DNA from: an uncultured Acidobacteriota bacterium | Lineage (GTDB): Bacteria; Acidobacteriota; UBA6911 | NCBI GenBank assembly: GCA_963843575.1 | Contig: CAWJKZ010000015.1 | Location: 64,001 to 128,000 of the forward strand | DNA length: 64,000 nucleotides | Direction: 5' to 3' | Shown: piece by piece, positions 2,149 through 29,862 of the stretch | Position numbering within the stretch: position 1 is the stretch's first letter | Layout: each line of letters begins with the position of its first letter | The notes under the pieces: generated by a model | Database searches by the model: none | Told to the model about the DNA's origin: nothing | Seen by the model: only the letters and a program-made list of their open reading frames with translations | Program-made: the position numbers and the translations under genes

Positions 2149-3501
2149 ATGACTGCGAAAATCAGCAGGCGGAAGTGGCTCCACACGTCGGCAGGGATCG
2201 CCGGTCTCGGCGCGGGTCTGGCCGCCCCGGAAGTGACTCCACAGCCCCAGCGTGAGATCAACAGGTTGTCCGCGCCCAGCGGCTTGAAGATCACGGACAT
2301 GCGCGCATGCACCGTGGCGGCCAACTACGATTACCCGATCATCCGGATCGACACCAACGAGGGAGTGTACGGACTGGGTGAGGTGCGGGATGCGGGTGTA
2401 AAGGGGATTGCGCTGATCCTCAAGGCGCATGTCATGGGGAAAAACCCGCTCGAGATGGAATCGATCCTGGCAAACCTGCGCCAGTTCGCAGCGCACGGCC
2501 GGATGGGCGGAGGCTACAGCGCCGTCGACATGGCGCTTCACGACATCGCCGGCAAGGTCTATGGGGTTCCGGCCTGGCGCCTGGGAGGAACGAAGTACCG
2601 CGACCGGATCCGGGTTTACTGCGATACGACGGGGCACAAAGACCCGAAGGTCTACGGCGAGCGGATGCTGAAGCGAAAGAAACTGGGCTTCACCTTCTTC
2701 AAGATGGACCTCTACACGAGCCTCGTGGCGGATCGTCCGGGAGCCGTACACGAGAACGGCGCCGCGACCGACAAAGGGCTCAAGTACCTTTGCGAGCACA
2801 TCGAGGCCGTCCGCGAGGCCATCGGATGGGATGCTCCGCTCGGGGCCGATCACTTCGGCAGGCTTTCGGTCAAGGACAGCGTTCGCTATGCCCGGGCGTT
2901 CGAGCCGTATCAACTGGCCTGGGCCGAAGACTTCATTGCCTGGAACGACTGGCGCGGGTTCAAGACCATCACGGAGTCCACGACCACGCCGATCCTGACC
3001 GGAGAAGACATCTTCGGATACGAGGACGGTTTCCAGGACCTCATCGAAAACCGCGCCGTCGACCTCATCCAGCCCGATCCGGAGACATCGGGGGGGATCG
3101 CCGAGACCCGGCGCATCGCGGAGATGGCTGGTCTCAAGGGCATTCCGACCGTGCTCCACTTCGCGGGTTCGCCCGTAGGCTGCATGGCTTCGGTTCACCT
3201 CGCGGCGACGATCAAGAACTTCGTCGTGATGGAAAATCATGCCGTGGACATGCCCTGGTGGCAGGACCTTGTGACCGGCACGCCGAAACCGATCGTCCAG
3301 GACGGGTACATCCGGGTGCCCGATACGCCGGGGCTCGGAGTCGAGCTGAACGAAGCGGTGATCAAGGAGCACCTCAGGTACCCGGGGTATTTCGAGCCAA
3401 CCCCGTTTTTCGACGACTTCATCGTTTCCGGCTTTCGCAGGGTGGGGCCCTGGCCTCACTACGACGAGGACGGCAACTACGGGAACAAAGTCACCTACTG
3501 A
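2149..3501 (+). CDS. Mandelate racemase/muconate lactonizing enzyme family protein with Tat signal
   Basis: SRRKWL Tat-like motif; SAVDMALHDIAGK, KMD and PGLGVEL enolase-superfamily motifs; AGGAGG RBS. Confidence 0.88.
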   Translation: MTAKISRRKWLHTSAGIAGLGAGLAAPEVTPQPQREINRLSAPSGLKITDMRACTVAANYDYPIIRIDTNEGVYGLGEVRDAGVKGIALILKAHVMGKNPLEMESILANLRQFAAHGRMGGGYSAVDMALHDIAGKVYGVPAWRLGGTKYRDRIRVYCDTTGHKDPKVYGERMLKRKKLGFTFFKMDLYTSLVADRPGAVHENGAATDKGLKYLCEHIEAVREAIGWDAPLGADHFGRLSVKDSVRYARAFEPYQLAWAEDFIAWNDWRGFKTITESTTTPILTGEDIFGYEDGFQDLIENRAVDLIQPDPETSGGIAETRRIAEMAGLKGIPTVLHFAGSPVGCMASVHLAATIKNFVVMENHAVDMPWWQDLVTGTPKPIVQDGYIRVPDTPGLGVELNEAVIKEHLRYPGYFEPTPFFDDFIVSGFRRVGPWPHYDEDGNYGNKVTY

Positions 3502-3548
3502 TCCGGAACGCCCCGGGTTGCTGAGACTTGATCTGTGCGTGTGGGTGC

Positions 3549-3605
3549 ACGCGAATTGACGCGGATCCGCGTGAATCGATTAAATCGGCGGAAATCCGTG
3601 TTCTG
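3549..3605. repeat. ACGCGGAT/ATCCGCG palindromic intergenic repeat
   Basis: acgcggatccgcgt palindrome; related to 21165-21262, 54825-54846 and 61013-61280. Confidence 0.5.
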
Positions 3606-3623
3606 CTTTTGTCTTTCTTGGCC

Positions 3624-4871
3624 CTAATCGAGGCTCCACAGCGCCAGGGTGTCGGAGTCCTTGACGAGTATCGTCCGGCCGACCACGACGGGATGGGCCC
3701 AGGTCGGGCTCCGGGCGACCGTGTAGCGGCGCATCGGTTCGAGTCGCGCCGGGGAAACGCGCGCTACCGTGAGTTCGGCCGAATCGCTCAGGAGCAGGAC
3801 CGTGTCGCCGAGCAGGACCACCGCTGCGTATTCGGCTGCGCGGCCGTCCCCCGTCCAGCCTACCTTTCCCGTGCGCACGTCGAGGGACACGAACTGGCCG
3901 CGTTTCCTGTGCGAGAGGCCGATCAGGGAGTCGCCGTGCAGGACGGGCGTGCTCATGTAGAACGACACCTCCCGATTTTCCCAGGCTCTCTCGGCCGTCC
4001 AGAGGGGCGAGGCACGCCTCACTCTGAGCGCGAGAACGCCCTGTTCGAGGCCGGAGAAGATGAGAAGACCGTCGTGGTGGAGAGGCGTCACCGCGTTCTG
4101 ATCCCAAGGGGTCGAATAGGGCAGTTTCCACAGGAGGGTGCCGTCGGCGGCTGCAACGCCGACGAGGTGCTTCTGGGATTGTGTCACCAGCTGGCGCACC
4201 CCCTCGATTTCGACGACGATGGGGGAAGCATAGGCGGGCCCGTCGCCCTTCCATGACCAGCGCGGGCGGCCTGTTTCCGCGTCGTAAGACACAAGGGCCC
4301 CGCTGTCTTGCCCGCCGACGTGCGCGATGACGGCGGCACCGTCGACGAGCGGCGACATCGCGGTCCCGTAGAGCGGGGAAGACGATTTGAACGTCGCTCC
4401 GGTTTCCCTGCGCCAGCGCACGCGGCCGCTCATGGCGTCGTAGCACGTGAGTGTGCCCGCAATCCCCAGCGTATAGAGCTTTCCACCGGAAAGCGCTGGG
4501 GTCGATTTGGGGCCTTTCCCGTGGGCGGTGGCGGCCGGGTTCATCGTGTACGGAGCCGGGTAGCGATCGGTCCACAGGATTCGCCCGGAGGTCAGGTCGA
4601 GGCTGGTCACCACTTCCTGTCCCCCCTGACGGGTGTGCAGGTACGCGCGGCCGCCGCCGACGACCGGGGAGGAATGGCCCGATCCCACCTGGATCTGCCA
4701 CCTCTTTCGCAGTTGCTCCGGCCAGCTTGCGGGGGCGCTGGGCGCAGCCACCACGCCATCGCGGCCAGGCCCGCGCCATTGCGGCCAATCCTGTGCGGGG
4801 CATTCCGGGAATGCCAGGACAGCCAGCCACAGGATCGTACAACTGAGCCGAAGCGTCTGTTTTCTATCCAT
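3624..4871 (-). CDS. PQQ-binding-like beta-propeller repeat protein
   Basis: Signal peptide followed by DWPQWRGPGRDG; repeated D..TG..RW propeller motifs. Confidence 0.85.
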   Translation of the reverse strand: MDRKQTLRLSCTILWLAVLAFPECPAQDWPQWRGPGRDGVVAAPSAPASWPEQLRKRWQIQVGSGHSSPVVGGGRAYLHTRQGGQEVVTSLDLTSGRILWTDRYPAPYTMNPAATAHGKGPKSTPALSGGKLYTLGIAGTLTCYDAMSGRVRWRRETGATFKSSSPLYGTAMSPLVDGAAVIAHVGGQDSGALVSYDAETGRPRWSWKGDGPAYASPIVVEIEGVRQLVTQSQKHLVGVAAADGTLLWKLPYSTPWDQNAVTPLHHDGLLIFSGLEQGVLALRVRRASPLWTAERAWENREVSFYMSTPVLHGDSLIGLSHRKRGQFVSLDVRTGKVGWTGDGRAAEYAAVVLLGDTVLLLSDSAELTVARVSPARLEPMRRYTVARSPTWAHPVVVGRTILVKDSDTLALWSLD

Positions 4872-4982
4872 CCGGAGACTCCTTTTTCCCGGGCCTTCCC
4901 ACGACACCTTTGTTACCCCCGGTGGCCCGTGAGAGAACTCGAGAATGGGAGTAAACCATGATAATAAGGACTTTATGCTCCA

Positions 4983-5142
4983 GTAGGTCCGGGCTTCAGA
5001 GGCTGTCCAGCGGTCGATTGTGGAGTGCGGCGGCTCGACGCCGCTTTGGTGGCGGCGCCTAGGCGCCGCACTCCAGATTACTTCAGTTCGTCCGGATTGA
5101 AGGTCAACCGTTGGACAGCATCTGAAGCCCGGACCCACCTAC
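4983..5142. repeat. Composite REP cluster (GTRG-GTCCGGGCTTCAG pair enclosing a GGAGTGCGGCG pair)
   Basis: Inverted gtccgggcttcaga...tctgaagcccggac enclosing gtggagtgcggcg...cgccgcactcca. Confidence 0.8.
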
Positions 5143-5219
5143 TTGTCCTGTGTATGTTCGGGAAACAGGGCCGCGGCGGGGCCGCCGCGGCCCACTTCAC
5201 TCGTGGTGCGCTCCTAGCA

Positions 5220-5921
5220 TTAGCGCTTCGCCGGCTCTGTCGAGCCAAGCCAGCGGTACACGACCCCTGCGATGACGGCACCGATGAGCGGAGCGAGCCA
5301 GAAGAGCCACAACTGCGACAGGGCTTCGCCGCCGACGATCAACGCCGGTCCGGTGCTCCTGGCAGGGTTTACCGAGGTGTTTGTGACCGGGATGCTTATA
5401 AGGTGAATCAGGGTCAGACCAAGTCCGATGGCGATGGGGGCAAAGCCCTTCGGTGCACGCTCCTCCGTGGCGCCCAGAATGATCATCAAAAACATGAAGG
5501 TCATGACCACTTCGGTGGCGAACCCGGCGGCGAGCGAGTACCCGCCCGGAGAACGCCCGGCGTACCCGTTGGACGCGAGGCCGCCGCTCAGGTCGAAGCC
5601 CGCCTTGCCGCTCGCAATGAAATAGAGCAGCCCAGCGGCGACTATGGCCCCGAGAACCTGGGACAGCACATACGGGATGAGTTCGGAAGCCTTGAAGCGC
5701 CCGCCCGCCCAGAGACCGACAGACACTGCCGGGTTCAAGTGGCAGCCTGAAATGTGCCCGATCGCGTAGGCCATCGTAAGGACGGTCAATCCGAAAGCCA
5801 GGGCCACACCCAGCAGCCCGATTCCGACGTTCGGGAATGCCGCCGCAAGGACGGCGCTCCCGCAACCGCCGAGCACCAGCCAGAACGTCCCGATGAACTC
5901 CGCTGCGACTTTCTTCGTCAT
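5220..5921 (-). CDS. aqpZ: Aquaporin Z
   Basis: [22 protein letters not shown]-terminus; two NPA motifs (HLNPAVS, SVNPARS). Confidence 0.95.
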
Positions 5922-6560
5922 TGTGCAACCCTCCTTCTCATGATTCCGGGCAAGAGGATCCCGCGTTGGTCAACTGCGGTTCGCGACGACATTTCTCCGG
6001 CAGCGCCGCACCAATTCTTCGAAAGCGCCCGTGTGTCAACCTCAAGCGCCGGCCGCGCGTTCCGCACCAGATCCTCGTCCGGTCAGATCAGTTCACGGCA
6101 TCTCCAGACAGACACGGATGGTCACATTTTCACACTTGCGGATTGCGGCTCCGATGCTACACCATGGGCTTCCCCCCCCACAACAGCTGGCTCCCCTGGC
6201 TCTGCGATTCAGACACTGGGAGCCGCCCGTTGGGTCCCGGCTCAGGTTTTGGCAGGTCCGGCTGGTGAGTTTTTCATCACAGGAGCGACTTGTCCTCTTT
6301 GGGAAATCGAAAGGACACGGCTTCTTGTGATGTTGACGGACACCTCGGCGAGATCCTGGGGTTCGTATCGGCGGGAAAAGTTGGCGGAGTTTCCTTGCGG
6401 ATAATTACGAGAGCAATCAAGGTGCCCGGACAAGTTTGAGCTCTTGTTCGAGATCTCGTCTGAGCCTTCTGATCTTTTCGAGGATTTTCGTGCCGGCGTC
6501 TGCCGAGAGCGTCGGCAGAAGCTCGGTATGCTCCGCAGGGGTGAACAGAGCAAAGCGATT

Positions 6561-6726
6561 GCGGATCACGTACGGATACGCATGAAAACTGTGAACTCCG
6601 TGCAGTCGCATGGACAGATTGCTCGCCACGTACATCCATAGCGGCACCTCTTCCTTCTCGCGTGGCGAAGGATAGGTTTCGGCCAGCTTCCCCAGCACCT
6701 TCTTCGCTCCGATGTAACGGAAGAAC
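6561..6726 (-). pseudogene. Internal fragment of a putative transposase (copy of 9546-9711)
   Basis: 166-bp near-identical direct repeat (about 4 mismatches) encoding FFRYIGAKKVLGKLAETYPSPREKEEVPLW. Confidence 0.65.
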
Positions 6727-6974
6727 GCTCCACTGGATTCCGAAGCCATATCGGGTTTTCGCGGACCACGACTTGCAAAAACCAGTCGAGCCTGCCGTGT
6801 TATAGTGGCGCGTGTTTCCTGCCGCAATTCCCCGGTGACAGGAGCATGCGATTGTTTTACCTCTTTGGTTTCGGGTTCATAAATTCGATCCGGCATGGCA
6901 CTGCGGCTTGTGTGATGCGCCGGCGCCGAATCCTCAGGTTCTATGTTAGATAGCGCAGGCACGGGAGCAACTCG

Positions 6975-9161
6975 ATGTACTGCATACACTGTGGCTCGGA
7001 AAATCCCGACGTAGGAAATTTCTGCTCCAAATGCGGAAAGACCATGACCTCCACGCCGAGCCGAGCGCAAGGCGCCTCGGCCATGGATTTTGCCGAAACC
7101 GAGCTGGGTCTCTCTGCCGGGTATACCCTTGCGGGCCGCTACCGTATCGCGAGGGAGATCGGCAGCGGTGGGATGGGGCGGGTGTACCTCGGCCAGGATG
7201 GAAAGCTGAACAATATGCCGGTGGCCATTAAGGTTTTGCGAGACATGCTTAGCCGCGACGGCGGCTCGGTAAAGCGGCTCATCGTCGAAGCGCAACTTTC
7301 CATGCAGCTTTCTCACCCGAACGTCATCCGGGTGCACAATTTCGAAGATGATGGATTCACGAAGTTTCTGGTGATGGAGTATGTCGAGGGGGAGACGCTC
7401 AAGGATCGGATCGATCGCGAGAGCCGGCTTGCGGAGAGCGAGACGCGGCGCCTGGGAGCTGAAATCTGCAAGGGACTCGAGCACGCGCACGCGAAGAAAG
7501 TGATCCACCGCGATTTGAAACCAGGCAACATCCTGCTTGGGAAAGACGGTTCGGTGAAAATCGCGGACTTCGGAATTGCGCGGGTCTGCCGGGACTCGAT
7601 GTCACGGCTGACTTCACAGATGGATTCCGGGACGCTGCTGTACATGTCGCCGGAGCAGCTGGACGGGGAGAGTACGGAGGCGAGCGACGTGTATTCGCTG
7701 GGGGTTGTGCTGTATGAAATGCTAAGCGGGGATCCGCCCTTTCGAACCGGTGACATAGCCGGTCAGATCCGCACGAAGCAGCCAAAGTCGTTGGAGAATG
7801 TATCCGAGGAATTCAATACCCTGGTATCACGCTGTCTTGCGAAAAATGCGGCAGACCGTTTTACGAATGTCCGTGACCTGATGGAAGAACTTTCGGGGAG
7901 AGGCGAAGAGCGGCGAAAGGAGGCCGCCCGGCTTGCCGCCAAAATCGATGAGTTCAAGCGTCGAGGCACTCGGGCCTTCGATGACGGCAACTACTCTGAA
8001 GCGATTACGCAGTGGGCGGCTGCACTGGCACTAAAGCCGGAAGACCGGACATTAAACGAAGCCATCGATCGGGCGCGAAGAAAGAAAGTCGATGCAGAAA
8101 GAGCGGAAGCCGAGAGCCGGCGGGTCGAAGCTGAAAAAGTTGCCACGCTCCAAGAGCTGGAGAATGAACGTCAGCAGCGGCTCGTGGCAGCCAAGGACCA
8201 AGGCGAAACAGCCTTTCAGCAGGGGCAGTATGAGGCGGCAATCCAGCACTGGAATGCGGCGCTGGAGATTTCTCCGGGCAATACATGGATCAGCGAGGCG
8301 ATTGAGCGAGCCGCTGGTCGATTAGCGCAGCAGCAGGAGGCGCCACGCCGCTCATCTCCGGCGCCAATACCGACTAAGGGCGGTGTTGGCAATCAGATTA
8401 TCTTTGTCGCCCTGGGTGTACTACTAACCGTCGCTGTTGTCTGGATTTACCAGAACGCGACCCGGGATAGCGCTGCGGTCAAATCGCCGAGCGGCACCAA
8501 CAGCCTTGGTATGGTCTTTGTTCAGATTCCGGCGGGCTCGTTTGAAATGGGTTCGAATTCTGGTGATTCGGATGAGAAGCCGGTCCATCGGGTAACGATA
8601 AGCCGGGACTTTCAGATGCAGGCAACGGAGGTAACGCAGGGGCAGTGGGAATCGGTGATGGGAAGCAACCCAAGTAATTTCAAGAACTGCGGGAAGGATT
8701 GCCCTGTGGAGAGCGTGAGCTGGAATGAGGTCAAGGAATACATACGGAGGCTGAACGGGCGCAATGACGGGTGGGAGTATCGGTTGCCGACGGAGGCAGA
8801 ATGGGAGTATGCCTGCCGGGCGGGGACGACGGGGGATTATGCAGGGAATCTGGACAGCATGGGATGGTATGGTCCTAATTCGGGGAACACTACCCATCCA
8901 GTGGGGAAGAAAGAGAAGAACCGCTGGGGTTTGTATGACACGCACGGGAATGTATGGGAATGGGTAGAGGATTGGTACGGTCCTTATACTTCAGGGTCGG
9001 CTACTGATCCCAAGGGGCCATCCTCAGGCTCGGGCCGGGTGGACCGCGGCGGCAGCTGGTACGGCGTCGCCGGGGGCTGCCGGTCGGCCGATCGTAGCTA
9101 CGACTCGCCCGGCGACCGCAACGGCAGCCTCGGCTTCCGCCTTGTGGGGACGGCCCGCTGA
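6975..9161 (+). CDS. Zn-ribbon + Hanks-type Ser/Thr kinase + TPR + TM + C-terminal FGE-sulfatase (CLec-fold) protein; probable DGR target
   Basis: CIHC/CSKC ribbon; GSGGMGRVY, VAIK, HRDLKPGN, DFG and YMSPE kinase motifs; TPR-like helices; hydrophobic IIFVALGVLLTVAVVWIY; RLPTEAEWEYACRAG, GNVWEW and RGGSW..GFR FGE motifs. Confidence 0.92.
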   Translation: MYCIHCGSENPDVGNFCSKCGKTMTSTPSRAQGASAMDFAETELGLSAGYTLAGRYRIAREIGSGGMGRVYLGQDGKLNNMPVAIKVLRDMLSRDGGSVKRLIVEAQLSMQLSHPNVIRVHNFEDDGFTKFLVMEYVEGETLKDRIDRESRLAESETRRLGAEICKGLEHAHAKKVIHRDLKPGNILLGKDGSVKIADFGIARVCRDSMSRLTSQMDSGTLLYMSPEQLDGESTEASDVYSLGVVLYEMLSGDPPFRTGDIAGQIRTKQPKSLENVSEEFNTLVSRCLAKNAADRFTNVRDLMEELSGRGEERRKEAARLAAKIDEFKRRGTRAFDDGNYSEAITQWAAALALKPEDRTLNEAIDRARRKKVDAERAEAESRRVEAEKVATLQELENERQQRLVAAKDQGETAFQQGQYEAAIQHWNAALEISPGNTWISEAIERAAGRLAQQQEAPRRSSPAPIPTKGGVGNQIIFVALGVLLTVAVVWIYQNATRDSAAVKSPSGTNSLGMVFVQIPAGSFEMGSNSGDSDEKPVHRVTISRDFQMQATEVTQGQWESVMGSNPSNFKNCGKDCPVESVSWNEVKEYIRRLNGRNDGWEYRLPTEAEWEYACRAGTTGDYAGNLDSMGWYGPNSGNTTHPVGKKEKNRWGLYDTHGNVWEWVEDWYGPYTSGSATDPKGPSSGSGRVDRGGSWYGVAGGCRSADRSYDSPGDRNGSLGFRLVGTAR
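9027..9161 (+). other. Putative DGR variable region (VR)
   Basis: Abrupt switch to A-poor sequence. Variable positions of the RVxRGGSWxxxAxxCRSAxRxxxxPxxRxxxLGFR scaffold are almost all NNC codons, as expected from mutagenesis of AAC codons. Confidence 0.7.
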
Positions 9162-9280
9162 CGCTTTGCTCTTTTACCCTTTTACCCTTGGCATTTTCAA
9201 GGGAGCCGGGCGGCGGGACTGGCGAGGCGGAAAGGGGCGCATCTCAGCCCCTCCGCAGCGCCAGATCCCCTGCCCGGCTT
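9162..9280 (+). promoter_or_regulatory. Pyrimidine repeat plus long imperfect GC hairpin after the VR (putative IMH/target-recognition structure)
   Basis: cttttacccttttaccctt, then agccgggc..gggactggcg..gcgg..aggggc / gcccctccgc..cgccag.tccc..gcccggct. Confidence 0.55.
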
Positions 9281-9364
9281 CGGATTTTGGCGACGGCGCA
9301 GCATTACAAAAATGTTGCCTGAGGGTGGACGGCCTTGTGACTATGAACGTATGAGGTACCCGAG

Positions 9365-9481
9365 TTGTTACGCGCCCGAGTTTTGACAATCCGATTCGAC
9401 ACGCTGAATGAATCGTTCGACGATGCTCCGCTGCAGGAATTCATCAAGGACAAGGACGTGATCTCCATTCGTGACCATCTT
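9365..9481 (+). pseudogene. 5' fragment of an HRDC-domain DGR accessory-type gene
   Basis: LRARVLTIRFDTLNESFDDAPLQEFIKDKDVISIRDH resembles the N-terminus of DGR-associated HRDC proteins (recalled pattern). GAGG RBS. The frame then runs into antisense transposase sequence. Confidence 0.6.
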
Positions 9482-9815
9482 ATGAGCCAGGACCTTGTGG
9501 AAGCGCGCTATTCAGTGGCCCAAACGCGTTCAACATTCCACCGCAGCGGATCACGTACGGATACGCATGAAAACTGTGAACTTGGTGCAGTCGCATGGAC
9601 AGATTGCTCGCCACATACATCCATAGCGGCACCTCTTCCTTCTCGCGCGGCGAAGGATAGGTTTCGGCCAGCTTCCCCAGCACCTTCTTCGCTCCGATGT
9701 AACGGAAGAACTCCGTCTCGGCTACTTCGCTGACCCCGTCGACAAAATCGAATTCCCCACCGCGGAAGCATTCCAAGACATAGTTCTGATCGTATTCAAA
9801 TACGACAAGATCCAT
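9480..9815 (-). pseudogene. Truncated putative DDE transposase (N-terminal ~100 aa only)
   Basis: Directly downstream of a DUF6788-like gene, an arrangement typical of IS elements; partly duplicated at 6561-6726; no catalytic domain present. Confidence 0.6.
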
Positions 9816-9820
9816 GAGCC

Positions 9821-10198
9821 TCAGGATTCCTTTCGCCTGGCCGCTTCCAACTGATCGATGAGCTGGATCATCGCCTTATAGATTTGCCCCAGCCGAGCAC
9901 GGGCGCGCCGAAACTTCTGATACCGTTCCGTCAAAACCTGAAAGTCTTTCAACTCGCCGGAAGGAATGGTCATGAGCTTGGTCCTGCCGCCCTCGCTGCG
10001 GCTCAGCATCATCGAACTGTGATGCTCGCCGCCGGCACAGTAGCAATTCGGCTTGCCGCACTTGCGCCGCTGCTCATAGACGGTCCCCTTGATCATGGGC
10101 CGGCGGTCCGTGAAGGCAGGCACCAATTCTTGGATTTCCTCAGCAAGCTGAGAGAGAGATTGGCGGATTCGGCTGAGTCGGTCAGATTGTGGCTGCAT
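9821..10198 (-). CDS. DUF6788-like IS-associated small protein
   Basis: MIKGTVYEQRRKCGKPNCYC..H motif followed by a coiled helix. Confidence 0.75.
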   Translation of the reverse strand: MQPQSDRLSRIRQSLSQLAEEIQELVPAFTDRRPMIKGTVYEQRRKCGKPNCYCAGGEHHSSMMLSRSEGGRTKLMTIPSGELKDFQVLTERYQKFRRARARLGQIYKAMIQLIDQLEAARRKES

Positions 10199-10518
10199 GT
10201 CGCTATGCAGTATAACATGCAGACCGCCAAGCAAAGCAACCCCCAAAATCACGTTGTTGAAAAAATCATCGGTAAGCAGTCAAACGAAGGAAGTGGAATG
10301 TCCTGACACCCGCAACTGCAGCGGCTGTGGAATTATCCGGCGGCGGGCGGCTCCCAGTGTCTGAATCGCAGTCCCCTGGCTTTGCGCTTGGTATGGTCCT
10401 GGGCGGTGCTTCGGGTATATAGTAAGCGCGTCACGAACGGAAGCAGAGAGCCGCCCCGGCAGACCCGGAATCGCATTTCGCCCAGCCCCGGGGGCGGAAA
10501 ACTCCTTAGGAGGCCGTC

Positions 10519-11055
10519 ATGGATTTGTTGAGCATGCTGCTGAATCAGGGCGGTGGTGATACCGTTCGCCAGTTGGCCGGCAATTTCGGCCTGAACGAGG
10601 AGCAGGCGGTGTCCGCGATCTCCAACCTCGTGCCGGCGCTCGGTCAGGGACTGGCTCGTAACGCCGCGACACCTGGTGGGCTCGAGGGCCTGCTGGGCGC
10701 ACTGGGGGCAGGCGGGCACCAGCGGTACCTGGAAGATCCTTCGATTCTCGGCCAGGAAGAAACCGTCCGGGACGGCAACGGAATCCTCTCCCACATACTG
10801 GGCAGCAAAGACGTGAGCCGCCAGGTTGCCCAACAGGCGGCTGACAGGACCGGAGTCGGAGCCGACGTGCTGAAGAAAATGTTGCCGGTGGTCGCGGCGA
10901 TGATGATGGGGACTCTCAGCCGACAGAGCGCAGCGCCGACCAGTTCGCCGGCCGACGGCCTCATGGGCTTGCTGAGCGGGTTCCTGGACAGCAACCGCGA
11001 CGGCTCCGTCGTCGACGACGTCCTCGGGATCGCATCCCGGTTTTTTCAGAAATGA
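10519..11055 (+). CDS. DUF937 domain-containing protein
   Basis: DGNGILSHILG motif; C-terminal LDSNRDGSVVDD; AGGAGG RBS. Confidence 0.85.
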   Translation: MDLLSMLLNQGGGDTVRQLAGNFGLNEEQAVSAISNLVPALGQGLARNAATPGGLEGLLGALGAGGHQRYLEDPSILGQEETVRDGNGILSHILGSKDVSRQVAQQAADRTGVGADVLKKMLPVVAAMMMGTLSRQSAAPTSSPADGLMGLLSGFLDSNRDGSVVDDVLGIASRFFQK

Positions 11056-27678: not shown

Positions 27679-29862
27679 TCAATTCTCTTCCGGTTCGACG
27701 ACCAGGTGGACGCGCCCGGGTTCCGGGTCGCGCAGGGTCTGGCGCGCGCCGGAGGGCCAGCGGACGACGGCCTGGCGGACGCGCCGGGCGGGTCCCAGGC
27801 CGAAGTGCACGGTGGGTTCGCTCGAGCCGGCGTAACCGACGGAGGTGGTGACGCGGTTCCACTGGCGGCCGGAGTCGGTCTCGATCTCGATCCATGCGCC
27901 GATGGCGTCGCGGTTGCTGCGGGTGCCGCGCAGGCGGAATCGGATCCAGCCGCCCGAAGGGTCGGAGCGGTTGCAGAGGACGACGGGGGCCTCGTTGAGC
28001 CGGGTTACGACGGCGTCGATGCGGCCGTCCCCGTCGAAGTCCGCGAAGGCGGCGCCGCGGTGCAGGGCCGATCCGGCGATCTGGACGGGGCGGAAGGAGC
28101 CGTCGTCCTGGTTGAGGAAGACCACGTTGGGCTGGCGGGCGGAGCGGTTTGAGATCATGTCGATGTTGTCGACGGCGTGGCCGTTGGCGGCGAAGAAGTC
28201 CTTGCGGCCGTCGTTGTTGAAGTCGTAGGAGCCGTTTCCCCAGCCGCTCCAGGGCATGCTGGCGGCGGCGATCCGGACGGGTCCGGAGACGTCGACGAAG
28301 GTGCCGTCCCCCTGGTTGCGGAAGAGCGGGAACATTTCGTTGGTCAGGGCGGTGACGAACAGGTCTTCCCAGCCGTCGTTGTCGAAGTCCCGGAAATCGC
28401 CTCCCATCGACGAGATGGCGACCCCGTAGTTGTTGTAGGCGACCCCGGCCTTGAGCGCGGTGTCGCGGAAGGTGCCGTTCCCCTCGTTGTGAAACAGGAA
28501 GTTGGCGACCGTGTCGTTGGCGACGAAGACATCGATGCGGCCGTCGTGGTCGTAGTCGCCGAAGGCGAGCCCCATCCCTTTCCCCTGGAGTGCGGCGACG
28601 CCGGAGGCCGCGGAGACGTCCTGGAAGGAGCCGTTTCCGAGGTTGCGGTAGAGGGAATTGGGCAGGGTCCCGTAGTACTTGGGGTGGCAGTAGGAGCGGT
28701 GTCCTTCCTGGCTGACGCCGCAGTAGATTTCGCGTCCCGGGTCCCACTGGACGTAGTTGACGACGAACAGGTCGAGCCGGCCGTCGCCGTCGTAGTCGAA
28801 CCACCCGGCCGCGACGGACCAGGTGCCGTTGCCGGCGACGCCGGCGTCGCGGGTGACGTCGGCGAAGGTGCCGTCGCCGCGGTTGCGGTACAGGGTGTTG
28901 CCGCGGACCCCGGCGACGAAGAGGTCGGTCCAGCCGTCGTTGTCGAAGTCGGCGGCGGCGGCCCCCATGCAATAGCCTGTGCCCCGCATGCCCGCGCGTT
29001 CGGTCGTGTCGCTGAAGCGCCCTCCGCCGTCGTTGTGGAAGAGCCGGTTCCAGAATTCCGGGCCGGTCTTCTCGAGCGAGGGAATCTCGGCACCGTTGCT
29101 GACGAAGACGTCCGGCCTGCCGTCGTTGTCGTAATCCAGGACTGCGACGCCCGCCACCATGGTTTCGATCAGGTGTTTCTTTCCGGCGGCGCCGTTGCGG
29201 ACCACCATCCCGAGCGGGGTCGGTTCGAACCGGACGGATGCCGTCTCGTTGGGGGGCGGGGCGGCCCCGAGGTGCGCCCCCTCGACGGAGCGGCGGATGT
29301 TCTCCAATTCCTCCGGAGCCCCGGCGTCCTTGAGGGCGTCGATGGCCTCGCGCCCGCGCCCGTTGCGGTGCAGGAACAGCCCGTAGTCGACCCGCGCGCG
29401 CCGCTCGCCGGCGGCGATCGCGTCGCGGTAGTGCTGTTCGGCGGCGGCCGACTGCCCGAGCGCCTCGAACGCCTGGGCGAGTCCGAGCAGCGCGCGGCCT
29501 CGCCCTTGCCCGCTCCGGAGCGCGAGGTCGTAGGCCTTGCGGGCGTCCTCGTAACGGCTGAGGCTGTAGAGGGTCCTGCCGAGGTAGTAGCAGGCGTTTT
29601 CCTCGGCCGGGTCGATGGCGCAGGCGCGCTGGAACGGGGCGAGCGCCTGCCGGTAATCCTCGCGGGCCGCGAAGGTCATGCCGAGCAGCTTGTACGGAAG
29701 GGCGCGGCCCGGCTGCTCGGCGACCGCCTGCCGGAAGTACTCTTCCGCCTTCACGAAATCCTTCCGGCCGAAGGCGGCGAGGCCCAGGTTGAGCGCGTCT
29801 CCGGTGTTCTGGGCCGCGCAGGCCGCCCACGCCAGCAGCAGGATCAACCGGAAGTTGCCCAT
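27679..29862 (-). CDS. TPR + FG-GAP repeat + ASPIC/UnbV (CRTAC1-like) protein
   Basis: N-terminal TPRs; repeated DYDNDG..D motifs; SNRDAIGA...HFGLG...VRWPSG. Confidence 0.92.
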   Translation of the reverse strand: MGNFRLILLLAWAACAAQNTGDALNLGLAAFGRKDFVKAEEYFRQAVAEQPGRALPYKLLGMTFAAREDYRQALAPFQRACAIDPAEENACYYLGRTLYSLSRYEDARKAYDLALRSGQGRGRALLGLAQAFEALGQSAAAEQHYRDAIAAGERRARVDYGLFLHRNGRGREAIDALKDAGAPEELENIRRSVEGAHLGAAPPPNETASVRFEPTPLGMVVRNGAAGKKHLIETMVAGVAVLDYDNDGRPDVFVSNGAEIPSLEKTGPEFWNRLFHNDGGGRFSDTTERAGMRGTGYCMGAAAADFDNDGWTDLFVAGVRGNTLYRNRGDGTFADVTRDAGVAGNGTWSVAAGWFDYDGDGRLDLFVVNYVQWDPGREIYCGVSQEGHRSYCHPKYYGTLPNSLYRNLGNGSFQDVSAASGVAALQGKGMGLAFGDYDHDGRIDVFVANDTVANFLFHNEGNGTFRDTALKAGVAYNNYGVAISSMGGDFRDFDNDGWEDLFVTALTNEMFPLFRNQGDGTFVDVSGPVRIAAASMPWSGWGNGSYDFNNDGRKDFFAANGHAVDNIDMISNRSARQPNVVFLNQDDGSFRPVQIAGSALHRGAAFADFDGDGRIDAVVTRLNEAPVVLCNRSDPSGGWIRFRLRGTRSNRDAIGAWIEIETDSGRQWNRVTTSVGYAGSSEPTVHFGLGPARRVRQAVVRWPSGARQTLRDPEPGRVHLVVEPEEN

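What the first reader, a model, noticed from the sequence alone, without database searches (positions are those of the whole stretch)
6192..10381. Non-autonomous transposon carrying a DGR target cassette
Seen: perfect 28-bp terminal inverted repeats (6202-6229, 10344-10371) flanked by an exact 10-bp direct repeat TCCCCTGGCT, the signature of a DDE transposition event. Inside are no intact transposase, a complete receptor-like kinase gene ending in a DGR-like VR with its downstream cis structure, an HRDC fragment and transposase debris. The DUF6788-transposase pair reads inward from the right TIR. Established: DGRs can diversify remote targets in trans, and IS-derived elements can carry passenger genes. 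Inference: an internally deleted IS captured the target half of a DGR and moved it as a portable hypervariable-sensor module. It would depend on a transposase and a TR/RT encoded elsewhere. The ends (CTG...ACAC) loosely resemble IS4-family IS50-type ends, which is also an inference.
Basis: partly seen in the sequence, partly recalled or inferred. Interest (0 to 1): 0.9.

Follow-up and report, generated by a model that had tools for sequence, protein, structure and literature searches.

The report
Dead transposon carrying a frozen hypervariable kinase
A broken insertion sequence with intact ends encloses a complete receptor kinase gene that was once diversified by a retroelement, but neither the machinery to move it nor the machinery to mutate it was found in this genome.

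Summary
Perfect 28-bp inverted repeats (6202-6229, 10344-10371) sit inside an exact 10-bp duplication, TCCCCTGGCT. A 2,438-bp full-length relative in another genome of the same family has the same ends, a 10-bp duplication, a DUF6788 gene and a 556-aa DDE transposase with the IS4 YREK motif.

In the window the transposase is split by 2,790 bp of foreign DNA (6727-9516). This block holds:
- the last 44 nt of an IS481-like element;
- an intact Zn-ribbon/Ser-Thr-kinase/TPR/TM/FGE-lectin gene ending in a DGR-type variable region;
- a post-VR motif shared with proven DGRs, and a hairpin;
- stubs of the HRDC and bAvd accessory genes.

The block joins internal IS positions (856 and 662), not IS ends, which leaves a 166-bp direct repeat.

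The assembly is 88% complete. It holds no DGR reverse transcriptase, template repeat, bAvd, intact transposase or second copy of the ends. No other cargo-bearing copy and no empty site were found.

The "portable module served in trans" idea is unsupported; the element is most likely a fossil. Published work already links IS elements to the dispersal of DGR targets. Interest is modest.

The parts
6192..6201 (.). Left copy of the 10-bp target-site duplication TCCCCTGGCT
6202..6229 (+). Left 28-bp terminal inverted repeat (the IS 3' end, IS position 2438 downward)
   Evidence: Same TIR as the full-length IS in L019.
6202..6562 (-). IS left arm, part 1. Equals IS positions 2083-2438 (82% identical to the G025 copy). 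Holds transposase codons about 510-556 with the stop at 6417-6419, then the non-coding tail.
6561..6726 (-). IS left arm, part 2. Equals IS positions 662-827 (transposase aa about 36-90). Fused to part 1 by an internal 1,255-bp deletion (IS 828-2082). Left copy of the 166-bp direct repeat.
6727..6770 (+). Last 44 nt of an unrelated IS481-like (rve) insertion sequence, 'element X'. Left edge of the cargo.
   Evidence: 98% identical to a copy in the same-genus genome G001.
6975..9161 (+). Intact 728-aa receptor-type Ser/Thr kinase: Zn-ribbon, Pkinase, TPR, one TM helix, C-terminal FGE-sulfatase (C-type-lectin fold) domain
   Evidence: GxGxxG, VAIK, HRDLKPGN and DFG motifs are visible in the translation.
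9027..9152 (+). DGR-type variable region (last about 42 codons of the kinase)
   Evidence: Aligns with the VR/TR pairs of two proven DGRs. The window has TAC, GGC, GTC, AGC and GAC codons where the templates have AAC or AAT (TRs established).
9169..9186 (+). Post-VR motif CTCTTTTACCCTTTTACC, shared with DGR targets in three other organisms
   Evidence: The only copy in the own genome that lies downstream of an FGE-domain C-terminus.
9204..9279 (+). Long imperfect hairpin followed by a T-rich run. Either a DGR cis structure or an intrinsic terminator.
   Evidence: spurious miRNA-precursor hits. (-43.3 kcal/mol, z -3.9, 0 of 200 shuffles as stable). A comparable hairpin occurs in L089 but not in L055.
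9365..9481 (+). First 38-39 codons of an HRDC-domain DGR accessory gene. The HRDC domain itself is deleted.
   Evidence: tblastn to L055, L089, L083 and L080 at E 1e-5 to 2e-7. Reverse hit E 5e-5. The L055 protein carries Pfam HRDC.
9482..9516 (+). About 11 codons resembling the middle of bAvd (DLVEARYS), fused in frame to the HRDC stub. Tentative.
   Evidence: 9 of 11 identical to the L055 bAvd ORF, E 0.5; same position in L089 and L080. bAvd identity of that ORF.
9517..10371 (-). IS right arm. Equals IS positions 1-856 (90% identical to the G025 copy). Holds the right TIR, the intact DUF6788 ORF (9821-10252), transposase codons 1-100 (9516-9815) and the right copy of the 166-bp repeat (9546-9711).
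   Evidence: In two other metagenome runs, IS relatives run on past 9517 into IS 857+ sequence.
10344..10371 (-). Right 28-bp terminal inverted repeat
10372..10381 (.). Right copy of the 10-bp target-site duplication

Best explanation
The element is 4,170 bp long. It is a non-autonomous remnant of an IS4-like insertion sequence whose family carries a DUF6788 gene plus a 556-aa DDE transposase, about 2.4 kb in all. It inserted between aqpZ and a DUF937 gene and made a 10-bp duplication.

Its transposase gene is destroyed. A 2,790-bp block sits between IS positions 856 and 662, and a further 1,255 bp of the IS is deleted.

The block is the front end of a decayed diversity-generating retroelement. 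It holds an intact transmembrane Ser/Thr kinase whose outer FGE/C-type-lectin domain ends in a variable region. After that come the post-VR recognition motif, a hairpin, and stubs of the HRDC and bAvd accessory genes. The block begins with the last 44 nt of an IS481-like element.

The junctions lie at internal IS positions. The cargo therefore entered by illegitimate recombination, template switching, or decay of a two-IS composite, not by transposase action. This step is inferred.

Most likely the already loaded unit then transposed here once, using a transposase supplied in trans. This step rests on the perfect TIRs and TSD and on the absence of any donor copy in the genome.

Today it is a fossil. 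It has no transposase to move it and no template repeat or reverse transcriptase to rewrite the VR. The kinase probably works as a fixed-specificity receptor kinase.
For: Ends and duplication:
- 28/28 TIRs and a 10/10 TSD.

Full-length relative, G025:C2:101854-104291:
- 2,438 bp, same TIR, 10-bp TSD GCCGAAGCGT, DUF6788 of 140 aa, DDE_Tnp_1 transposase of 556 aa.
- The YREK motif YRLRTGIEERHRQLK is visible.

Arm mapping:
- Window 10371-9517 = IS 1-856; 6726-6561 = IS 662-827; 6562-6202 = IS 2083-2438.

The family is real:
- 37 metagenome contigs carry the 21-nt TIR core.
- 8 of them carry a full-length transposase with DUF6788 upstream, and a ninth is cut by its contig end.
- Short TIR-bounded derivatives of 191-318 bp exist.
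- Of 10 two-ended elements, 3 have a perfect 10-bp TSD, 1 has 9 bp, 4 have none and 2 are cut by contig ends.
- 3,445 homologues at E<=1e-20 among 8,000 scored.

Cargo identity:
- Pfam Pkinase, TPR and FGE-sulfatase.
- The HRDC stub matches accessory genes of loci that hold HRDC, bAvd, an RT with IGxxxSQ/YMDD, and a TR whose mismatches to the VR fall on template adenines (21 of 22 in L055, 12 of 14 in L089).
- VR alignment. Post-VR motif.

Fossil status, in the own genome:
- The TIR occurs only at this pair.
- No second copy of the cargo.
- No TR-like match to the VR.
- The 5 RVT_1 hits are group-II-intron type: QGG..SP motifs, and a GIIM domain in one.
- bAvd: 0 hits.
- No intact transposase. 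There is one 134-149-nt relic on C23.

Composition:
- GC is 55-62% inside the element and 62-66% to its left.
Against: - The assembly is only 88% complete, in 27 contigs. Multi-copy ISs and TR/VR pairs often fail to assemble, so absence of the transposase, RT and TR is not proven.
- The source reads were not available. The two runs found hold only relatives of the IS. Junctions and VR heterogeneity could not be checked.
- The VR's flanking cis elements look intact. Trans diversification by a cognate DGR remains physically possible.
- The order of events, loading before or after insertion, is not resolved. No second loaded copy and no empty site were found.
- The bAvd stub rests on 11 residues (E 0.5).
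Confidence: 0.68

Rival explanations
1. One reading: an active, portable hypervariable-sensor cassette. The TIR-bounded unit is mobilised by a transposase encoded elsewhere. Its VR is rewritten in trans by a TR/RT encoded elsewhere, either in the unassembled 12% of the genome or on a phage or plasmid.
For: - Perfect TIRs and TSD.
- Intact kinase ORF.
- Intact post-VR motif and hairpin.
- The DUF6788 ORF is still open.
- The assembly is incomplete.
- Short TIR-bounded transposase-less derivatives of this IS family exist, which fits mobilisation in trans as a family habit.
Against: - No TR, DGR RT, bAvd, transposase or extra TIR in 6.68 Mb.
- The accessory genes next to the VR are deleted down to stubs. 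This is what decay looks like, not modular design.
- No other cargo-bearing copy in 50 relatives of the family, in 37 metagenome contigs with the TIR core, or in 80 loci encoding relatives of the kinase.
- The only other DGR-like kinase paralogue in the genome (C10) has a VR only about 56% identical. Its template, if one exists, would not be cognate.
Confidence: 0.08
2. In-situ loading. An IS (intact or already deleted) landed here and made the TSD. The DGR fragment was copied or recombined into it afterwards. Two routes are possible: replication template switching (out at IS 856, back at IS 662), or Campbell-type integration of a circle through the 166-bp homology. On this reading the DGR target never travelled by transposition.
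For: - The cargo is flanked by a 166-bp direct repeat of IS 662-827 (originally up to 856). That is the footprint expected from a single crossover or a two-step template switch.
- Recombination between the repeats would leave exactly a 1,183-bp deletion derivative.
- A similar internal-deletion derivative exists in G072 (IS 554-1062 joined to 1878-2229).
Against: - A donor copy of the kinase, HRDC and X block should exist or have existed in the same cell. None is in the assembly.
- The two repeat copies differ at 4 of 166 positions. They are either old or come from different IS copies.
Confidence: 0.2
3. Resident locus. The kinase/DGR cassette is ancestral beside aqpZ and the IS pieces merely landed around it.
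For: In G010 (same family, another genus) a 715-aa kinase/FGE gene lies divergently beside aqpZ. It has the post-VR motif, a bAvd gene and a truncated DGR RT (aa 10-126), and no TIRs.
Against: - That kinase is 71-73% identical (aa) to the G000 paralogue at C10:74-2555 but only 50% identical to the cargo. It is therefore a different paralogue.
- It has bAvd directly after the target, without an HRDC gene.
- Only 1 of 28 aqpZ loci in relatives has a kinase within 1.5 kb.
- Two independent IS insertions would not give identical 10-bp flanks.
Confidence: 0.03
4. Assembly artefact. The contig is chimeric across the 166-bp repeat or across the IS arms.
For: Repeats of 166 bp can mis-join short-read assemblies. 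I could not lay the source reads.
Against: - The perfect TIR and TSD geometry around the whole unit is not what a chimera produces.
- The element lies 70 kb into a 316-kb contig of a 27-contig assembly.
- Both IS arms are single-copy in the assembly.
Confidence: 0.02

Closest known systems
IS4-family insertion sequences (IS50/IS10/IS231 groups) as defined in De Palmenaer et al. 2008, 'IS4 family goes genomic' (PMC2266710; passages read)
   Same: - DDE_Tnp_1 transposase with a complete Y(2)R(3)E(6)K motif in the full-length relative.
- Target duplication of about one helix turn (10 bp).
- 5'-CT ends as in the IS10 and IS50 subgroups. By my own count, 5 of the 7 conserved IS50-subgroup end positions match.
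   Different: - 2.4 kb long, against the 1.35-1.55 kb given for IS50.
- A second conserved ORF (DUF6788) lies upstream of the transposase, whereas the family is described as single-ORF.
- NCBIfam IS4, IS701 and IS1380 models score far below their cut-offs (27-28 bits against 115-180).
- No paper in the library mentions DUF6788.
Mobile insertion cassettes (MICs, e.g. MIC231 bounded by IS231 ends) and passenger-carrying 'transporter' ISs. Recalled from memory; only the listing was seen.
   Same: IS ends plus a TSD enclose passenger genes without a working transposase. Mobility would need the cognate transposase in trans.
   Different: - Here the passenger is wedged between internal IS positions and has a 166-bp duplication.
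- Transposase debris and an intact accessory ORF are retained.
- No trans-mobilisation has been shown and no second copy is known.
Composite transposons of the IS4 family (Tn5, Tn10). Recalled.
   Same: Two IS-derived arms bracket a cargo, and the outermost ends are the active ones.
   Different: - The arms are directly oriented fragments of what reads as one split IS.
- Both inner ends are missing.
- Neither arm encodes a transposase.
DGR targets of the kinase + C-type-lectin (FGE-sulfatase) type, and remote or degraded DGR components near transposases. Sources: Vallota-Eastman et al. 2020 (PMC7517822) and Dore et al. 2023 (10.1101/2023.09.22.558884); passages read.
   Same: - An N-terminal Ser/Thr kinase with a C-terminal CLec VR is the commonest multidomain target reported in cyanobacteria.
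- Both papers report transposases, IS elements or MITE-like repeats in DGR loci and propose that they disperse or duplicate targets.
- Degraded cassettes are reported.
   Different: - This case is in an Acidobacteriota genome. The phylum is inferred from the nearest named records.
- It has an explicit TIR+TSD boundary around the target.
- The DGR belongs to a clade with target, HRDC, bAvd, RT and TR in that order.
- No TR or RT is left at all.

Membership tests
IS4 family (sensu De Palmenaer 2008) | DDE transposase with a complete Y(2)R(3)E(6)K signature | tested here: met
   The full-length relative (L019 2612-4282) has Pfam DDE_Tnp_1 at E 1.7e-14. YRLRTGIEERHRQLK is visible. The window copy itself retains only aa 1-100, 36-90 and 510-556, so it lacks the motif.
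IS4 family (sensu De Palmenaer 2008) | Target duplication of about 10 bp | tested here: met
   10 bp in the window, L019 and L162; 9 bp in L133.
IS4 family (sensu De Palmenaer 2008) | Single-ORF transposase; D(60-110)D(100-150)E spacing | tested here: inconclusive
   The transposase is one ORF, but a conserved DUF6788 ORF precedes it in 9 of 9 contigs that hold both regions. D-D-E spacing was not measured.
IS4 family (sensu De Palmenaer 2008) | Score above the curated NCBIfam IS4 model cut-offs | tested here: not met
   Best scores: IS1380 28.1 bits (cut-off 180), IS701_3 26.9 (170), IS4_1 27.0 (115).
Non-autonomous IS derivative / mobile insertion cassette | Cognate TIRs and a TSD, with no functional transposase inside | tested here: met
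Non-autonomous IS derivative / mobile insertion cassette | Mobilised in trans; more than one copy or site | tested here: not met
   One copy only in the own genome. No identical loaded unit in 50 relatives or in 37 TIR-bearing metagenome contigs. No transposase in the assembly. A mobilisation assay is not possible with these tools.
Composite transposon | Two separate IS copies flanking the cargo | tested here: inconclusive
   The arms overlap by IS 662-827 and differ there at 4 of 166 nt. This fits two copies, but it also fits a duplication within one.
Diversity-generating retroelement (complete) | DGR-type reverse transcriptase | tested here: not met
   The RVT_1 hits in the own genome are group-II-intron type. 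tblastn with a DGR RT gives only 26-30% identity to those.
Diversity-generating retroelement (complete) | Template repeat matching the VR except at adenines | tested here: not met
   No TR-like match in 6.68 Mb. The same method found the TRs in L055 and L089.
Diversity-generating retroelement (complete) | Accessory gene (bAvd and/or HRDC) | tested here: not met
   Only a 38-codon HRDC-protein stub and an 11-codon bAvd-like stub remain. PF22296 gives 0 hits in the genome.
DGR target gene (VR-bearing) | C-terminal CLec/FGE-sulfatase domain ending in a VR, with NNC codons at the template's AAC sites and clade-specific downstream cis elements | tested here: met
   Pfam FGE-sulfatase at E 5.7e-44. 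Alignment to two VR/TR pairs. Post-VR motif shared with L055, L089 and G010. The adenine-specific pattern itself cannot be shown without the cognate TR.

The most novel reading that the evidence does not exclude
The unit is a working mobile insertion cassette of an undescribed DUF6788-associated IS4-like family. It ferries a DGR target, with its recognition signals intact, between genomes. Any resident or incoming DGR of the HRDC/bAvd clade could then adopt the receptor kinase as a remote target. On this reading, transposition and retro-mutagenesis cooperate to spread hypervariable sensors.
Probability: 0.06. Interest if true: 0.7.

Novelty: new member of a known kind. Interest (0 to 1): 0.33.

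Why it matters
Two papers (PMC7517822 and 10.1101/2023.09.22.558884) propose that transposable elements scatter DGR targets and components around genomes. In the passages I read, they base this on nearby transposases and MITE-like repeats.

This locus is a concrete, base-resolved example. A DGR target lies inside intact IS ends with a target-site duplication. It therefore shows one physical route by which a once-hypervariable receptor kinase can be cut loose from its retroelement and relocated.

It also shows the usual end state: the specificity is frozen and the vehicle is dead.

As a by-product it defines an abundant IS family that is unnamed in the literature searched. The family has a conserved 21-nt end, a 10-bp duplication and a DUF6788 accessory ORF.

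None of this changes how DGRs or ISs are thought to work.

Tried and rejected
1. Empty site.
- In the same-genus genome G001 (about 75% nt identity), aqpZ and DUF937 lie on different contigs.
- 0 of 20 DUF937 loci in relatives have aqpZ within 1.5 kb.
- The flanks of aqpZ are not alignable even within one genus.
- No empty site could be found, so this test is uninformative.

2. Resident-locus idea from G010. Rejected, because that kinase is the orthologue of the C10 paralogue. Intergenic regions showed no convincing similarity.

3. Reads.
- The only 2 runs found (one study) hold 6% of the sampled words.
- Laid, they carry relatives of the IS and of conserved kinase/FGE parts, not this organism.
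- Junction spanning and VR heterogeneity could not be tested. Uncovered parts are not evidence.
- Complex prediction, structure prediction and fold search were not used. No claim needs them.

4. Rfam. Nothing real was found at 5900-10600 (only miRNA-precursor look-alikes on the hairpin). Nothing was found for element X.

5. An exact 28-mer scan of genome contigs found nothing.

6. Relatives of the kinase.
- The HRDC stub was not found in 50 family genomes. Two hits at E 0.07-0.09 were dismissed.
- The closest FGE-domain relatives (L052, L053, L054, L076; 57-64% identity) lack a kinase, DGR parts and the post-VR motif.
- TR detection was run on 26 of the 80 loci only.
- The L080 hit there (0 of 15 mismatches at subject A) was not counted as a TR.

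7. A weak VR-like hit at window 28824-28909 is an unrelated FG-GAP/TPR protein.

8. Four contigs (L132, L140, L165, L011) share one TIR-like end and the same flank, with no partner within 9 kb. This is either a solo end or a very large element. It was not resolved.

9. Literature. Supplements of PMC7517822 (Tables S4 and S5, transposases near variable proteins) and of the 2023 preprint (SI Dataset S4) are closed. They may list comparable TIR/TSD-bounded cases. "Not in print" claims rest only.

Full report
**Observation**

- The arms 6202-6229 and 10344-10371 are 28/28 complementary. They are the only matches in the window at up to 3 mismatches, and none of 100 shuffles gave a match.
- TCCCCTGGCT occurs twice in the window, at 6192-6201 and 10372-10381, each directly outside a TIR.
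- Between the TIRs lie the following:
  - an open 728-aa ORF at 6975-9161 with Zn-ribbon, Pkinase, TPR and FGE-sulfatase domains;
  - a DUF6788 ORF on the minus strand at 9821-10252;
  - short ORFs that are pieces of a transposase.

**What the vehicle is**

The TIR occurs nowhere else in the window's own genome. That assembly is 6.68 Mb in 27 contigs and 88% complete.

Among 60 other genomes, 6 carry the TIR at up to 3 mismatches. One of them, G025, holds an inverted pair 2,438 bp apart. That copy (L019 2055-4492) has:
- a 10-bp duplication, GCCGAAGCGT;
- a 140-aa DUF6788 gene;
- a 556-aa ORF with Pfam DDE_Tnp_1.

The transposase contains YRLRTGIEERHRQLK, a complete Y(2)R(3)E(6)K signature. 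That signature and a duplication of about 10 bp are the hallmarks of the IS4 family in De Palmenaer et al. 2008 (PMC2266710, passages). Curated NCBIfam IS4, IS701 and IS1380 models score far below their cut-offs. No paper in the library mentions DUF6788. I therefore call it an IS4-like, unclassified family.

The family is common.
- 37 metagenome contigs hold the 21-nt TIR core.
- 8 of them hold a full-length transposase preceded by DUF6788, and a ninth is cut by its contig end.
- Transposase-less, TIR-bounded derivatives of 191, 234 and 318 bp exist.
- 3,445 homologues at E<=1e-20 were found among 8,000 scored, mostly on contigs of 2.3-2.7 kb.
- Of 10 two-ended elements examined, 3 have a perfect 10-bp duplication (window, L019, L162), 1 has 9 bp, 4 have none and 2 are cut by contig ends. 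Two of the four without a TSD share their flanks crosswise with other contigs, so they are probably chimeric assemblies.

**How the window copy is broken**

Alignment to the full-length IS gives this map:

| Window | IS positions | Identity |
|---|---|---|
| 10371 down to 9517 | 1-856 | 90% |
| 6726 down to 6561 | 662-827 | 93% |
| 6562 down to 6202 | 2083-2438 | 82% |

- The right arm keeps the TIR, DUF6788 and transposase codons 1-100.
- The left arm keeps codons about 36-90, fused by a 1,255-bp internal deletion to codons 510-556, and then the tail and TIR.
- Both arms contain IS 662-827. This is the 166-bp direct repeat (98%, 4 differences).
- The cargo is therefore 6727-9516. It is joined to internal IS positions, not to IS ends.
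- In two unrelated metagenome runs, contigs of IS relatives run on past 9517 into sequence that matches IS 857 onward. This independently marks 9517 as the break.

**What the cargo is**

- *6727-6770.* This is the last 44 nt of a different repeat that ends sharply at ...TTTTCGCGGACCACG in many genomes of the family. In G019 two copies of it are 1,374 bp long and 97% identical. They encode a 371-aa rve-type transposase, so it is an IS481-like IS.
- *The kinase.* It has the GxGxxG, VAIK, HRDLKPGN and DFG motifs and one hydrophobic span before the FGE domain. It reads as a transmembrane receptor kinase.
- *The variable region.* The last 42 codons or so align with the VR/TR pairs of two proven DGRs. 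Where the templates carry AAC or AAT, the window carries TAC, GGC, GTC, AGC and GAC.
- *Proof of those two DGRs.* Their VR-TR mismatches fall on template adenines: 21 of 22 in L055 and 12 of 14 in L089. L055 carries, in order, target, HRDC protein, bAvd, RT and TR.
- *Downstream of the stop.* The window shares an 18-nt motif (9169-9186) with L055, L089 and a family relative, G010. A long hairpin follows at 9204-9279 (-43.3 kcal/mol, z -3.9). A comparable hairpin is in L089 but not in L055, and it is followed by a T-rich run. It may simply be a terminator.
- *HRDC stub.* The ORF starting at 9365 matches the first 38 residues of the HRDC accessory proteins of four DGR loci (E 2e-7 to 1e-5; reverse search E 5e-5).
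- *bAvd stub.* The HRDC stub then jumps in frame to 11 residues resembling the middle of bAvd (E 0.5, tentative). After that it hits the IS at 9517.

In short, the cargo is the front of a DGR whose back (HRDC domain, bAvd, RT, TR) has been deleted away.

**Is anything still working?**

In the own assembly:
- The VR has no TR-like partner.
- The five RVT_1 hits are group-II-intron enzymes, some broken.
- bAvd gives no hit.
- The transposase query finds only the window fragments and a small relic on C23.
- The cargo has no second copy.

The family genomes do not hold this cassette either.
- The best nucleotide match to the kinase is 74%.
- The HRDC stub is absent from 50 relatives.
- A DGR RT query finds one truncated DGR RT in G010 and one 27%-identical RT in G027.

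I conclude that the element is most likely inert for both movement and mutagenesis. The caveat is that 12% of the genome is missing, and repeats are the part most likely to be missing.

**History (inferred)**

The perfect TIRs and duplication say that a two-ended unit was inserted here once by a transposase. The internal junctions say that the cargo did not enter by transposition. Three routes fit:
- decay of a two-IS composite, with both inner halves deleted;
- a two-step template switch, out of the IS at 856 and back at 662;
- a single crossover of a circle through the 166-bp homology.

No donor copy of the block is in the genome, and the element is slightly GC-poorer than its left flank. 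I therefore favour loading elsewhere followed by transposition of the loaded unit. In-situ loading keeps about 0.2.

G010 carries a kinase/FGE gene divergently beside aqpZ. It has the post-VR motif, bAvd and a truncated RT, and no TIRs or IS sequence.

However, that kinase is 71-73% identical to the G000 paralogue at the start of contig C10 and only 50% identical to the cargo. It also lacks the HRDC gene. Only 1 of 28 aqpZ loci in relatives has any kinase nearby. I treat the shared neighbour as coincidence. It does show that kinase-type DGR cassettes, also decayed, occur in this bacterial family.

**Comparison with what is known, and novelty**

Mechanistically this is a mobile-insertion-cassette or composite-like remnant of an IS4-like IS (the MIC concept is recalled; only the listing was seen).

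Kinase+CLec proteins are already described as the commonest multidomain DGR targets in cyanobacteria. Transposases, IS elements and MITE-like repeats have been proposed to disperse and duplicate DGR targets (PMC7517822 and 10.1101/2023.09.22.558884, passages).

What is added here is one explicit TIR+TSD-bounded case and a description of the IS family. I rate it a new member of a known kind, interest 0.33.

The boldest reading still open is a working cassette adopted in trans by a cognate DGR. I give it about 0.06.

Noticed in passing
window 5019-5085 (also near 3650-3700): A palindromic repeat of about 50-60 nt. It translates as ...WTASEART... in two window ORFs. It matches more than 100 places in the same-genus genome G001, often in tandem arrays spaced 90-160 bp apart. 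It looks like a REP-like element.
   Followed up: no
L190 35-1407 (G019:C27) and L191 29-1402; window 6727-6770: An IS481-like (rve_3) insertion sequence of about 1.37 kb with a conserved end ...GGATTCSGAAGCCRTATCGGRTTTTCGCGGACCACG. It is multi-copy in several genera of the family. Solo ends of about 40 nt also occur, e.g. in G019:C23 about 3 kb from aqpZ.
   Followed up: partly
L019 2055-4492; L147, L153-L158, L162, L163: An abundant IS4-like IS family that is unnamed in the literature searched. It always carries a DUF6788 ORF (with a KCGKPNCYC...GEHH Cys/His cluster) upstream of the transposase. It has a conserved 21-nt end and a 10-bp duplication, and short transposase-less derivatives of 191-318 bp.
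   Followed up: partly
L196 (G010:C24:228000-239000, reverse strand 2768-5692): A second decayed DGR in the family: aqpZ, then kinase/FGE with the post-VR motif, then bAvd, then the RT truncated after residue 126. No TR is present.
   Followed up: yes
G000:C10:74-2555 (L004): A paralogous kinase (587 aa) and FGE domain (252 aa) sit in two overlapping frames, so the gene is split. They end 73 nt from the contig start. This is the orthologue of the G010 DGR target, but it lacks the post-VR motif.
   Followed up: partly
window 9169-9186; L055 about 3186-3205; L089 about 6733-6752; L196 reverse strand about 4920-4945: A post-VR motif of about 18 nt (CTCTTTTMCCCTKTTMCC). It is conserved downstream of DGR targets in Acidobacteriota, Rhodothermales and Bdellovibrionales records. 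It may be a clade-specific target-recognition element.
   Followed up: partly
G000:C17:1-1654, C9:75655-76953, C24:402335-403350: Group-II-intron reverse transcriptases. On C17 one is interrupted and a second lies at the contig end. The C24 copy is broken into pieces.
   Followed up: partly
L132 9051-9071, L140, L165, L011 (G027:C26:7614-7641): The same TIR-like end with the same outside flank (CAAGGGTCCCAC) occurs in four records. No partner end lies within up to 9 kb. It is either a conserved solo end or a very large element.
   Followed up: no
G072:C85:17766-18610: Another internal-deletion derivative of the same IS (positions 554-1062 joined to 1878-2229). Such deletions recur in this family.
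   Followed up: no
G020:C20:15309-19757; G061:C137:18390-26271: In another genus of the family, DUF937 and aqpZ lie 3-7 kb apart on one contig in convergent orientation. There is thus a loose neighbourhood link between the two genes that flank the element here.
   Followed up: no
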